Shown: one piece after another, positions 6,373 through 12,448 of the stretch | Position numbering within the stretch: position 1 is the first letter of the stretch | How the letters are laid out: each line of letters starts with the position of its first letter | From: an uncultured Thermoleophilia bacterium | GTDB lineage: Bacteria; Actinomycetota; Thermoleophilia; Gaiellales; Gaiellaceae | Direction: 5' to 3' | NCBI GenBank assembly: GCA_963826245.1 | Contig: CAWGWM010000003.1 | Coordinates: 99,194-163,193, forward strand | Length of the DNA: 64,000 nt | Position numbers and translations under genes: made by a program | The notes under the pieces: model-generated | Seen by the model: only the letters and a program-made list of their open reading frames with translations | The model's database searches: none | Told to the model about the DNA's origin: nothing

Positions 6373-8013
6373 CTACCGATCTTTTGCCGGGCGGCGCACC
6401 GCGTACGTCGCAGCCTCGGAACGACTGCGCAGCCCGAGCTTCGAGAGGATGTGGGCCACGTGGTGCTCGGCGGTGCGGCGGCTGATCACGAGTCGCTGCG
6501 CGATCTCCTCGTTCGTGCATCCATCGCCGAGCAGTGTCAGCACCTCGAGCTCGCGCCTGGTCAGGTTGCCGGCCTGCCTCGGGGACGTCCGTCCGGTCGC
6601 GCCGAGGTCACGGAGCAGAGCTGCCGTGAGGTCAGCGTCGGCGAGCGCGCCGATCCGCTCGAACGCTCCGAGCGCAAGCTGCGCCTCCGCGACGGCGGCC
6701 ACCGGCGCGTCCGCCGAGAGCGCCCGGGCGAGCTCTCGCTGGGCACGCGCTGCCTCGAGTGGGAGTTGAAGCCGGGAGAAGCGTCGCAGCGCGGCCTGGA
6801 GGTGTCCCGCTGTGCTCGCATCGCCTGTGGCGGCCTGAACACGCCCTTCTGCGAGCTCGGCGAACGCGAGCGCAGCGTCGTCCTCGTTCGAGGTCGCGAT
6901 GGCCGCAAGCTCTTCGAGTGCGGCGTGTGCGGCCGGCAGATCGTTCCGTGAGACGCTGATCTGCACCAGCATCTCGAGAATCGGGGCGCAGGCGGGATCG
7001 GTCCGTGTCTCGCCGGCGAGGCAGAGACGTGCGAGCTGATCCGCGAGGACGAGCTCTCCACGGGCGAGCGCAACGGCGGCGAGAGTGCGCCGGGCGATCG
7101 GATGAGACTCGTGGCCGTCGATCAGTCGGCGCGCCTCCTCGTAGCGTCCCTGGCGGGCCCGCAGGTCACCGAGTCGAGCGAGCGGCCAGCCGCTCAGCCC
7201 GCGGTAGCCTCCCTCGAAGACGCGCGCGGCCTCGAGGAGTTGCTCCTCGGCTTCGGCCCAGCGGCCGACTGCGATCAGAATGCCGCCGTAGTGCGTTCGG
7301 CAGACGGGGGAGACGAAGTCGCTCCAGGCGCCGAAGGCGCCGGCGACGGCGAGCCACTGCTCGGCCCGTGTCACGTCGAGGGCGGTCTCGCACGCGCTCA
7401 GCAACCGGCAGTAGATGTCGCCGACGGGGACCACGCCCACGACTTCTCCGGCGGAGACTGCGGTCATCGCCTCGTCGAGCAGCTTCATCCCTTCCCGCAC
7501 GCGGCCGGCGGCGACGTGGGACTCGCCGAGCAGCGAGAGCGCGTCGAACTCGAGGTCGACGTCGCCGAAGCGTCGTGCGATCGCGAGCGCCGCGGTCGCG
7601 AGCTTCTGACGTTCGTCGGCATCGTCGGCGAACGGAGCACCGTCGAGGACGAGCCAGCCGTGGCCGGCGCACTCGTCCTCGTTCTCGAGCAACGACGCTG
7701 CACGCGCCATCCAGCCGCTCGCGACGGTCATGTTGCCGTTGATCGTCCCGTGCAGGAATGCGAGCCATCGGGCGCGATCGGCTGCCGCGACCGGGTTGTT
7801 CTCCTGCCGGTAGGCGGCGAACGCGCGCTCGGTCACGTCGATCGCGCGCTGGTAGTCGTGCAGGAAATGGAGTGCCCGGCCGAACCCGTCGAGTGTCTCT
7901 CCGGTCTCTCGAATCGCGCCCGCACTCTCGAAGCAGGCACGCGCGTTTTCCCAATCGGCGTCCGCGAGCGCGTTCCAGCCGTCGCGAACAGGGTTGTCGG
8001 TCGTGCCGTCCAT
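6373..8013 (-). CDS. LuxR-family transcriptional regulator with N-terminal TPR-like region
   Basis: C-terminal LTRRELEVL...TNEEIAQRLVISRRTAEHHVAHILSKLG helix-turn-helix, preceded by long alanine-rich helical repeats. Confidence 0.9.
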   Translation of the reverse strand: MDGTTDNPVRDGWNALADADWENARACFESAGAIRETGETLDGFGRALHFLHDYQRAIDVTERAFAAYRQENNPVAAADRARWLAFLHGTINGNMTVASGWMARAASLLENEDECAGHGWLVLDGAPFADDADERQKLATAALAIARRFGDVDLEFDALSLLGESHVAAGRVREGMKLLDEAMTAVSAGEVVGVVPVGDIYCRLLSACETALDVTRAEQWLAVAGAFGAWSDFVSPVCRTHYGGILIAVGRWAEAEEQLLEAARVFEGGYRGLSGWPLARLGDLRARQGRYEEARRLIDGHESHPIARRTLAAVALARGELVLADQLARLCLAGETRTDPACAPILEMLVQISVSRNDLPAAHAALEELAAIATSNEDDAALAFAELAEGRVQAATGDASTAGHLQAALRRFSRLQLPLEAARAQRELARALSADAPVAAVAEAQLALGAFERIGALADADLTAALLRDLGATGRTSPRQAGNLTRRELEVLTLLGDGCTNEEIAQRLVISRRTAEHHVAHILSKLGLRSRSEAATYAVRRPAKDR

Positions 8014-12076: not shown

Positions 12077-12193
12077 TGGTCGCCGCCACGTAAAGTCCGC
12101 TCGTTGCGGACAAATGTTTCGAGGGCGAATTCCCCGGCCGGATGTGCGGGCTCCTCTTGGCGGGACATGTCTCGCAGGTGATTGAATGCACCC

Positions 12194-12448
12194 GTGGCTA
12201 CCCGACCGAGCATCCGGATCGAGTACTGCGTTCCCTGAAGCGCGTTGCCGAACGCCGCCGGTCTGGCGGTGCGGGTGCTGGAGGAGTGGGAGGGGCGGCT
12301 CGGGGCGCTCGAGGTCATTCCCGGGAGCGGCGGGATCTTCGACGTGCACGTCGACGGCGAGCTCGTCTTCACGAAGTCGATGCTGGGGCGGTACCCGGAG
12401 CCGGACGACGTCCTGCCGTTGTTGCGGGAGCGCATCGAGAGCGCCTGA
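12194..12448 (+). CDS. Probable selenoprotein: SelW/SelT/SelH (Rdx) family, Sec at TGA 12236-12238
   Basis: GTG 12194 gives MATRPSIRIEYCVP-U-SALPNAAGL...LEVIPGSGGIFDVHVDGELVFTKSMLGRYPEP (84 aa). It has a CxxU motif and the Rdx GxFEV/D-like motif. The ORF track only begins after the UGA. Confidence 0.93.
12253..12271 (+). promoter_or_regulatory. Bacterial SECIS-like hairpin of the SelW-like gene
   Basis: CGCCGCC-GGUCU-GGCGGUG, with the loop 21 nt after the UGA. The GGUCU loop resembles the apical loop of the E. coli fdhF SECIS. Confidence 0.8.

What the first reader, a model, noticed from the sequence alone, without database searches (positions are those of the whole stretch)
12194..12448. 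Hidden SelW/Rdx selenoprotein (CVP-U) with an fdhF-like SECIS
The ORF caller starts this protein at 12245, just after a TGA. Seen in the sequence: extending upstream in frame gives MATRPSIRIEYCVP-TGA-SALP, which places the TGA at the second position of the CxxC/CxxU redox motif of Rdx/SelW proteins. A hairpin CGCCGCC-GGUCU-GGCGGUG begins its loop 21 nt downstream. Established knowledge: bacterial SECIS elements lie just 3' of the Sec UGA, and E. coli fdhF has a similar GGUCU apical loop. Inference: the UGA is read as selenocysteine.
Basis: partly seen in the sequence, partly recalled or inferred. Interest (0 to 1): 0.8.

Follow-up and report, generated by a model that had tools for sequence, protein, structure and literature searches.

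The report
Miscalled selenocysteine Rdx/SelW-like gene
A small redox-protein gene of a Gaiellales-type actinobacterium has a TGA codon that almost certainly encodes selenocysteine, so gene callers cut the protein short; it is a new lineage-wide example of a selenoprotein family known since 2005.

Summary
Window 12194-12448 (+) is one 84-codon gene of the Rdx/SelW-like family. Its TGA (12236-12238) is the second position of the CxxC/CxxU redox motif (C-V-P-U). Read through, the protein matches Pfam Rdx over the whole profile (61.8 bits, against 40.3 bits for the 67-aa called ORF). The TGA aligns with Cys of solved CxxC homologues.

About 68 related genomes, mostly Gaiellales/Thermoleophilia MAGs, keep the same in-frame TGA. 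The eight codons before it are conserved as protein while synonymous sites vary. Only two genomes of that set have Cys.

Twenty-one nt downstream lies a 7-bp hairpin with an RGUCU loop. It shows compensatory changes at four of the seven stem pairs and frozen synonymous sites. It is lost in the diverged Cys forms.

The window itself holds no sel genes or tRNAs. However, eight related MAGs with the TGA form, one a closed chromosome, also carry tRNA-Sec(UCA). One of them also shows selA-selB next to that tRNA.

Bacterial SelW-like CxxU selenoproteins are already described, so this is a new member of a known kind. Its practical value is in correcting annotation.

The parts
12194..12448 (+). Full coding sequence of the Rdx/SelW-like selenoprotein: 84 codons including Sec, then a stop at 12446-12448
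   Evidence: Translation is. Pfam Rdx PF10262 scores 61.8 bits over profile positions 2-73 of 74 when read through. NCBIfam TIGR02174 CXXU_selWTH scores 44.5 bits against a cutoff of 34.2. Solved homologues 3DEX and 2FA8 align over residues 3-82.
12194..12196 (+). GTG start codon
   Evidence: It aligns with the start codon of the orthologues: ATG in 47 and GTG in 7 of 68 at codon -14. Conservation is lost upstream of it, and an in-frame stop lies at -19 (12179-12181 in the window).
12174..12178 (+). Possible Shine-Dalgarno sequence AGGTG, 15 nt before the GTG
   Evidence: Read directly from the sequence. This is inference only, and the spacing is rather long.
12227..12238 (+). Redox motif C-V-P-U (TGC GTT CCC TGA)
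   Evidence: Cys -3 and Pro -1 are invariant and Val -2 is present in 65 of 68. The motif aligns with the CxxC of 3DEX and 2FA8 and with CVPC homologues.
12236..12238 (+). In-frame UGA read as selenocysteine (inferred)
   Evidence: TGA is present in all but two (L046, L060) of the related loci whose motif codon could be read. No variant appears in public contigs. TGA is otherwise an ordinary stop here, ending 20 of 42 predicted genes.
12253..12271 (+). SECIS-like hairpin: 5' arm 12253-12259, loop GGUCU 12260-12264, 3' arm 12265-12271
   Evidence: It is in the minimum-free-energy fold. Over the ten pairs tested (this stem plus the weak lower helix) 91.3% of cells pair, and the seven stem pairs pair in about 97%. 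Four stem pairs show changes on both sides, and 0 of 500 shuffles reach the observed values. Loop positions G26, C28 and U29 are invariant and U27 is present in 66 of 67. GGT is only 11% of Gly codons in the window.
12248..12274 (+). Possible lower extension of the hairpin: CCG 12248-12250 pairing with CGG 12272-12274 across an AA bulge
   Evidence: It is in the minimum-free-energy fold. Only about 75% of cells pair and there is essentially no covariation, so support is weak.
12245..12448 (+). The 67-aa ORF as called mechanically (TTG start): an artefact of treating the UGA as a stop
   Evidence: It matches Pfam Rdx only from profile position 14 and lacks the redox motif. Public databases hold the same truncated calls of 57-67 aa, for example 'Rdx family protein [Gaiella sp.]'.

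Best explanation
Window 12194-12448 encodes a single 83-residue protein of the Rdx/SelW-like family. This is a family with a thioredoxin-like fold. Its redox motif is Cys-Val-Pro-Sec.

Proposed mechanism:
- Translation starts at GTG 12194.
- At UGA 12236-12238 the ribosome does not terminate.
- The hairpin 21 nt downstream (7-bp stem, loop GGUCU) acts as a bacterial SECIS. It recruits SelB-GTP carrying Sec-tRNA(Sec), which inserts selenocysteine.
- Translation then continues to the stop at 12446-12448.
- The product is a small thiol/selenol oxidoreductase whose physiological substrate is unknown.

Shown here:
- Family membership.
- The position of the UGA in the motif.
- Conservation of both reading-frame halves.
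- Conservation and covariation of the hairpin.
- A tRNA-Sec gene in eight related genomes that carry the same gene, with selA-selB beside it in one of them and in other Gaiellales-type genomes.

Inferred:
- Actual Sec insertion.
- SelB binding.
- The redox function.
For: Family:
- Pfam Rdx scores 61.8 bits over the full profile when read through, against 40.3 bits from profile position 14 for the called ORF.
- TIGR02174 CXXU_selWTH is above its cutoff.
- Solved Rdx proteins 3DEX (E 4.5e-13) and 2FA8 align from residue 3, with the UGA opposite the second Cys of CxxC.

Recoding:
- 68 distinct upstream sequences keep I/V-R-I-E-Y-C-V-P directly before the TGA.
- Synonymous sites vary there (Arg CGC 35 / CGG 30 / AGG 2 / CGT 1; Val GTC 32 / GTT 31).
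- A start codon sits at -14, and conservation is lost beyond it.
- TGA is a normal stop in this window, ending 20 of 42 genes.
- Only L046 and L060 have Cys.

SECIS:
- The seven upper-stem pairs form a standard pair in about 97% of cells, and compensatory changes occur at four of them (CG to UA or GC, GC to AU).
- 0 of 500 shuffles reach the observed values, and slid controls pair in 30-58% of cells.
- The Gly codon in the loop is GGT in 55 and AGT in 11 of 67, so its third base is T in 66 of 67. GGT is 11% of Gly codons in the window, and T is 6.3% of third positions.
- The diverged Cys forms have lost the loop and the hairpin.
- The loop shares GGUCUG with the E. coli fdhF SECIS.

Machinery:
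- selA-selB(-tRNA-Sec) clusters occur in Gaiellales-type MAGs.
- tRNA-Sec occurs in at least 119 genomes.
- Rfam RF01852 scores 61-69 bits against a gathering score of 47.
- Eight MAGs hold both the TGA gene and tRNA-Sec: L002/L348, L003/L395, L007/L380, L009/L339, L020/L351, L023/L381, L038/L372 (closed chromosome OY969104.1) and L050/L369.
- L003 and L007 are syntenic relatives whose ABC transporter is 91-93% identical to the window's.
- SelD with its own active-site UGA is present in Gaiellales MAG L475.
- The metagenomes that hold the window also hold selA/selB contigs about 85% identical to L395, at similar depth.
- Reads confirm the TGA.

Literature:
- Bacterial SelW-like CXXU selenoproteins are established (PMC1088965, PMC1794560).
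Against: - No selA, selB, selC or selD lies in the 64-kb window, and the rest of this genome could not be read.
- SelD was found in only one Gaiellales MAG. One of the two search patterns required Cys at the active site and cannot match the Sec form.
- Hairpin stability is not better than shuffled sequence.
- No Rfam family matches the hairpin.
- The hairpin lies in coding sequence, so part of its conservation is shared with protein constraint.
- The covariation control by shuffling does not correct for relatedness of the sequences.
- There is no expression or protein evidence. The one metatranscriptome contig covers only 31 nt.
Confidence: 0.9

Rival explanations
1. The TGA is a true stop. 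The functional product is the 67-aa protein from TTG 12245, as the gene caller has it. The 14 upstream codons are untranslated, or a separate mini-ORF.
For: This is how gene callers and public databases treat it: many hits are 57-67 aa, including 'Rdx family protein [Gaiella sp.]'. TGA is a common stop in this genome.
Against: The truncated product lacks strand 1 and the CxxC/U motif that define the family, since Pfam matches only from position 14. The eight codons before the TGA are conserved as amino acids with synonymous variation in 68 sequences, in the same frame as the downstream part. A 14-codon mini-ORF would have no reason to end exactly at the Cys column of homologues.
Confidence: 0.03
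2. The UGA is read through, but not as selenocysteine. Instead a near-cognate tRNA inserts Trp, Cys or Arg, or the UGA codon is reassigned.
For: Sequence alone cannot tell which residue is inserted. Sec machinery was not seen in this very genome.
Against: UGA is a regular stop in the window, so there is no reassignment. A dedicated, covarying hairpin at SECIS distance is conserved only in the UGA forms. tRNA-Sec co-occurs in the same MAGs, with selA and selB beside it in one of them. The position is the classic Sec/Cys site of this family (PMC1088965).
Confidence: 0.04
3. The gene is a pseudogene, or the TGA is an assembly or sequencing error of TGC/TGT.
For: Single-base neighbours of TGA occur in relatives: TGT, TGC and GGA.
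Against: The TGA is identical in about 68 independent genomes and in contigs of three public runs. Purifying selection acts on both sides.
Confidence: 0.01
4. The hairpin is only a by-product of the conserved peptide N-A-A-G-L-A-A and has no RNA function.
For: It lies in coding sequence for conserved residues. Its stability is not above shuffles.
Against: Synonymous third positions inside it are frozen (for example the GGT T in 66 of 67), while those outside vary freely, against an 11% GGT usage. Paired changes alter both amino acids together (Ala to Thr with Ala to Val) and keep the pairing. The diverged Cys homologues replace G-L by A-L and lose the hairpin.
Confidence: 0.02

Closest known systems
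Bacterial SelW-like (Rdx family, PF10262 / TIGR02174) selenoproteins with a CXXU motif
   Same: Same Pfam and TIGRFAM family. Same N-terminal motif, with Sec as the second redox residue. Same small size. Same Sec/Cys interchange among homologues. A SECIS hairpin directly after the UGA with G in the apical loop. This was described as the most abundant selenoprotein family of the Sargasso Sea set (PMC1088965) and as occurring in several bacterial phyla (PMC1794560).
   Different: The lineage: Gaiellales/Thermoleophilia (Actinomycetota). I found no paper in the held library describing selenoproteins there. The motif is C-V-P-U and the SECIS is very uniform, with an RGUCU loop. In the genome set scanned, the Sec form outnumbers the Cys form by about 68 to 2.
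E. coli fdhF SECIS (SelB-binding hairpin)
   Same: It sits in the coding sequence right after the UGA. The apical loop starts with GGUC, and the hexamer GGUCUG is shared. The loop begins 18 nt after the UGA in fdhF and 21 nt here. The GU of the loop, which is the SelB contact in fdhF according to established work recalled from memory, is invariant or nearly so here.
   Different: fdhF has a 4-nt loop closed by A-U and a bulged U in the upper stem. Here there is a 5-nt loop on an uninterrupted 7-bp G+C-rich stem with no bulge. Binding by SelB was not tested.
Solved Cys-containing Rdx proteins: 3DEX (SAV_2001, Streptomyces avermitilis), 2FA8 (Atu0228), 2OJL, 2OKA, 2OBK
   Same: They align over residues 3-82 (E 4.5e-13 to 9e-8). 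IEYC-xx-C aligns with IEYC-VP-U.
   Different: Those proteins have Cys, not Sec, and are about 20 residues longer. No biochemical function has been assigned to them.
Mammalian selenoprotein W (SELENOW) and MIEN1/C17orf37 (2LJK)
   Same: Same fold family. CxxU is in the same position in SelW.
   Different: They have a eukaryotic 3'-UTR SECIS and different machinery. Sequence similarity is weak (E 1.9e-6 to 2LJK).

Membership tests
Rdx / SelT-SelW-SelH family (PF10262, TIGR02174) | Profile match above the curated cutoff | tested here: met
   PF10262 scores 61.8 bits against a cutoff of 22.6, over profile positions 2-73 of 74. TIGR02174 scores 44.5 bits against a cutoff of 34.2.
Rdx / SelT-SelW-SelH family (PF10262, TIGR02174) | CxxC or CxxU motif after the first strand near the N-terminus | tested here: met
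   C-V-P-U at residues 12-15 aligns with the CxxC of 3DEX and 2FA8 and with CVPC homologues.
Rdx / SelT-SelW-SelH family (PF10262, TIGR02174) | Thioredoxin-like fold | not tested
   Inferred only from sequence homology to solved structures. No structure prediction was run.
Bacterial selenoprotein gene | In-frame UGA aligned with Cys in homologues | tested here: met
   
Bacterial selenoprotein gene | Coding conservation on both sides of the UGA in one frame | tested here: met
   Upstream codons -8 to -1 are conserved with synonymous variation in 68 sequences. The downstream part is 59% mean column identity with 16 invariant residues.
Bacterial selenoprotein gene | SECIS hairpin just 3' of the UGA with a small apical loop containing G | tested here: met
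   A 7-bp stem and RGUCU loop lie 21 nt after the UGA. Four stem pairs show compensatory changes, and 0 of 500 shuffles reach the observed values. [quoted passage not shown]
Bacterial selenoprotein gene | selA, selB, selC and selD in the same genome | not testable with these tools
Tested in relatives: tRNA-Sec occurs in eight MAGs that carry the TGA gene. These include a closed chromosome and two syntenic relatives, and selA-selB lies beside the tRNA in one of them, L395. SelD was found in one Gaiellales MAG only.
Bacterial selenoprotein gene | Selenium shown in the protein | not testable with these tools
   This needs 75Se labelling or mass spectrometry.
fdhF-type SECIS | GGUC apical loop with the G-U contacted by SelB | tested here: met
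   The loop is GGUCU. G26 is invariant and U27 is present in 66 of 67. The hexamer GGUCUG is shared with fdhF.
fdhF-type SECIS | Bulged U in the upper stem and a 4-nt loop | tested here: not met
   The stem is an uninterrupted 7 bp and the loop is 5 nt. It therefore works like, but is not a copy of, the fdhF element.

The most novel reading that the evidence does not exclude
Gaiellales, an abundant soil and sediment order of Actinomycetota, may be an almost uniformly selenocysteine-using lineage. In it this Rdx-U protein would be a core selenoprotein, SelD would itself be a selenoprotein, and one nearly invariant RGUCU SECIS would be shared across hundreds of species. All of this is currently invisible because public annotation truncates the gene to 57-67 aa. 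The loop's identity with E. coli fdhF would then point to very old conservation of the SelB-SECIS contact, and would predict that E. coli SelB can decode this element.
Probability: 0.55. Interest if true: 0.4.

Novelty: new member of a known kind. Interest (0 to 1): 0.3.

Why it matters
Practical consequences:
- It corrects a systematic annotation error. More than 600 stretches in the species-representative genome set match this gene, and public protein sets list it as a 57-67 aa fragment without its active site.
- It marks Gaiellales/Thermoleophilia as selenium users. That is relevant to trace-element ecology of soils and sediments, where they are abundant.
- It gives a clean comparative data set for bacterial SECIS rules in a high-G+C lineage: 67 distinct UGA forms, recent Cys converts that still carry the hairpin, and older Cys forms that have lost it.

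It does not reveal a new mechanism.

Tried and rejected
- Thermodynamic significance of the hairpin: z = 0.72 for 71 nt and -1.2 for 45 nt. Rejected as a criterion, because the genuine fdhF SECIS scores no better.
- Rfam at gathering threshold over the whole window, and at E <= 10 on 12180-12330: no SECIS family, only chance hits.
- ARAGORN on the window: no tRNA.
- tblastn of E. coli SelA, SelB, SelD and FdhF against the window and the 80 Rdx loci: nothing.
It showed that generic patterns cannot target one lineage.
- SelD search with a Thermoleophilia SelD alignment: only one Gaiellales hit. One of the two patterns required Cys where that hit has UGA.
- Synteny as a functional clue: the neighbours are conserved only in the closest relatives. 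They are a PspC/LiaF stress module upstream and a hypothetical gene plus two ABC exporters downstream. No functional link is claimed.
- A scan of the window for further in-frame TGAs flanked by coding-like sequence gave only two artefacts. The filter also missed the Rdx gene itself, so it is not a reliable negative.
- Literature searches for Gaiella or Thermoleophilia together with selenoproteins found nothing relevant. Term searches in two recent bacterial selenoproteome papers also found nothing.
- The metatranscriptome run X17 gave only a 31-nt partial match, which is no evidence on expression.

Full report
**What is in the sequence**

On the + strand a GTG at 12194 opens a frame that reads VATRPSIRIEYCVP, then TGA (12236-12238), then SALPNAAGLAVRVLEEWEG...RERIESA, and ends at TGA 12446-12448. 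The mechanical ORF list starts the protein at TTG 12245, which gives 67 aa. An in-frame stop lies at 12179-12181, so the frame cannot start further upstream than TTG 12182. It is CGCCGCC, loop GGUCU, GGCGGUG. It is part of the minimum-free-energy fold, and 21 nt separate the UGA from the loop.

**Family**

With the TGA written as Cys, the 84-residue product matches Pfam Rdx (PF10262) at 61.8 bits over profile positions 2-73 of 74. The 67-aa call matches only from position 14, at 40.3 bits. NCBIfam TIGR02174 (CXXU_selWTH) is above its cutoff.

Against solved structures the best matches are bacterial Rdx proteins: 3DEX (E 4.5e-13), 2FA8, 2OJL, 2OKA and 2OBK. In these alignments 'IEYCTQC' or 'IRYCTQC' lies opposite 'IEYCVP-U', so the TGA is the second residue of the CxxC motif.

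**Relatives**

A protein search returned 846 hits. Most are 57-67 aa, which are truncated calls. A minority are about 83 aa with CVPC.

A scan of one genome per species found more than 600 matching stretches. The 80 best are almost all MAGs labelled Gaiella, Gaiellaceae, Gaiellales or Thermoleophilia.

- In about 68 of them the same in-frame TGA follows IEYCVP. Only L046 and L060 have TGC.
- Across 68 distinct upstream sequences, codons -8 to -1 are I/V-R-I-E-Y-C-V-P.
- Synonymous variation occurs there: Arg CGC 35 / CGG 30 / AGG 2 / CGT 1, and Val GTC 32 / GTT 31 / GTG 2.
- Codon -14 is a start codon (ATG 47, GTG 7).
- Conservation disappears beyond that point, and in-frame stops appear.

The short upstream piece is therefore translated, in the same frame as the downstream part. 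A stop at the TGA cannot explain that.

TGA is otherwise an ordinary stop in this window, ending 20 of 42 predicted genes, so the codon is not reassigned. Contigs of three public metagenome runs (sediment and marine sediment) laid on the locus show no other letter at the TGA.

**The hairpin**

Stability is uninformative in 69% G+C DNA. The z-score is -1.2, and the genuine fdhF element gives -0.87 in the same test. The comparative evidence is what counts.

In 67 distinct UGA-form sequences, aligned without gaps:
- The seven upper-stem pairs form a standard pair in about 97% of cells. The figure for all ten pairs tested, including the weak lower helix, is 91.3%.
- Changes on both sides occur at four stem pairs: 18:36 CG to UA/GC, 21:33 CG to GC/UA, 22:32 GC to AU six times, and 23:31 CG to UA.
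- 0 of 500 shuffles reach the observed values.
- Sliding one arm by 1-3 columns drops pairing to 30-58%.

Loop positions 26, 28 and 29 (G, C, U) are invariant. U27 is present in 66 of 67, and position 25 is G or A.

U27 is the third base of a Gly (or Ser) codon. GGT is only 11% of Gly codons in this window, and T is 6.3% of all third positions. That base is therefore held by something other than the protein.

Several of the paired changes alter both amino acids together, such as Ala to Thr with Ala to Val. This is what an RNA constraint inside a coding region looks like.

The hairpin's fate in Cys-form homologues fits this reading:
- The two diverged Cys-form genomes have lost both the loop and the stem.
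- Two Cys forms from metagenomes, with TGT and TGC, still carry most of the hairpin and look like recent conversions.

A lower three-pair extension is predicted but is poorly supported.

The loop shares GGUCUG with E. coli fdhF, which I fetched and read. The geometry differs, however. fdhF has a 4-nt loop and a bulged U. Here there is a 5-nt loop on an unbroken stem.

No Rfam family matches the element.

**Sec machinery**

The window has no tRNA gene and no selA, selB or selD, and the rest of its genome could not be reached. I therefore tested relatives.

- A G+C-biased DNA pattern for the SelA pyridoxal-phosphate motif found selA-selB clusters in Gaiellales-type MAGs, some followed by a tRNA-Sec.
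- All 119 are called tRNA-SeC(UCA) by ARAGORN. Of these, 52 also have selB in the same 8-kb block, and 38 of those have selA as well.
- Rfam RF01852 scores 61-69 bits against a gathering score of 47.

Eight MAGs appear in both lists, with the TGA-Rdx gene and tRNA-Sec:
- L002/L348
- L003/L395 (selA-selB-selC)
- L007/L380
- L009/L339
- L020/L351 (same contig)
- L023/L381
- L038/L372 (closed chromosome OY969104.1)
- L050/L369

L003 and L007 share the window's gene order. Their ABC transporter is 91-93% identical to the window's, so they are close relatives.

SelD was found in only one MAG labelled Gaiellales. There its active site reads HGSG-TGA-ACK, so SelD is itself a candidate selenoprotein. 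Its Sec form cannot match the one of my two search patterns that required Cys at this site.

The metagenomes that hold the window also hold selA/selB contigs about 85% identical to L395, at depths like the window's. This is circumstantial.

**Mechanism and confidence**

The best explanation is standard bacterial Sec insertion. SelB, carrying Sec-tRNA(Sec), is recruited by the hairpin while the UGA is in the A site. The result is an 83-residue Rdx protein with a Cys-x-x-Sec redox centre. I put this at 0.9.

The steps shown are family membership, motif position, translation of both halves, an RNA-level constraint on the hairpin, and the presence of the machinery in the clade. Sec insertion itself, SelB binding and the redox role are inferred.

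The rivals each fail against one or more of the results above, and together they get about 0.1. They are a true stop, non-Sec read-through, a pseudogene or sequencing error, and a hairpin that is only a by-product of the peptide.

**Context**

The neighbours are as follows:
- Upstream and divergent: a PspC/LiaF-like membrane protein and a PspC-domain histidine kinase.
- Downstream: a conserved hypothetical gene and two ABC exporters.

The rest of the window is ordinary chromosomal metabolism and transport. The gene order is kept only in the nearest relatives, so I draw no functional link from it.

**Comparison with what is known**

Bacterial SelW-like proteins with CXXU were described in 2005 as the most abundant selenoprotein family of the Sargasso Sea data. 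Their SECIS hairpins have a small apical loop containing G (PMC1088965).

[quoted passage not shown] The roughly 68 to 2 ratio seen here fits that.

I found nothing in the held library on selenoproteins in Gaiella or Thermoleophilia. The finding is a new member of a known kind. Its value lies in annotation repair and in marking a large soil and sediment lineage as a selenium user.

Noticed in passing
L475:4028-4093 (Gaiellales MAG CAZWAR010000076.1): The SelD homologue has an in-frame TGA at the active-site position (LSHGSG-TGA-ACKLGP). A 7-bp hairpin with a GGAC loop lies about 16 nt downstream. SelD itself therefore looks like a selenoprotein in this lineage.
   Followed up: partly
L208:2353-2445, L395:4525-4617, L372:7072-7164 and at least 116 further loci: A Gaiellales-type tRNA-Sec has a 35-nt core that is near-identical across at least 119 genomes. 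It often lies just downstream of selA-selB. Rfam RF01852 scores 61-69 bits.
   Followed up: yes
L444:177-428, L445:301-561, L446:301-552, L443:301-552: Public protein calls of this family show W, G or C at the Sec position.
- The 'W' (P0003) is really TGA in the DNA.
- The 'G' (P0009) is a genuine GGA with an intact hairpin, on a 598-nt contig.
- TGT (P0004) and TGC (P0002) forms still carry most of the hairpin and look like recent Sec-to-Cys conversions.
   Followed up: partly
L075:3012-3080 (Gammaproteobacteria MAG); L070:3012-3080 (Ilumatobacteraceae MAG): Distant Rdx homologues also have an in-frame TGA in the CxxU position. The gammaproteobacterial one has a hairpin with an AGUCU-containing loop like the Gaiellales element. 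The Ilumatobacteraceae one has a different downstream sequence.
   Followed up: no
window:58102-58608 (-): The enoyl-CoA hydratase ORF matches Pfam ECH_1 only from profile position 88 of 251. Only about 200 nt separate it from the upstream acyl-CoA synthetase gene. Its N-terminus seems to be missing, through truncation, a frameshift or an unusual start.
   Followed up: no
window:8122-8562 (-): A 146-aa ORF with coding-like composition has no Pfam match. It lies in the same frame directly upstream of the TPR-LuxR regulator gene 6373-8013, separated by one stop codon. I did not check which stop codon it is, or whether homologues are fused.
   Followed up: no
window:9815-11788 (-): Two adjacent PspC-domain genes lie divergent from the Rdx gene. 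One has a LiaF-like C-terminal domain and the other a histidine-kinase ATPase domain. Together they look like a cell-envelope stress module. The pairing with Rdx is kept only in the closest relatives.
   Followed up: partly
window:12482-13114 (+): The gene directly downstream of Rdx has no Pfam match. It is conserved at 40-58% identity at the same position in nine related loci.
   Followed up: no
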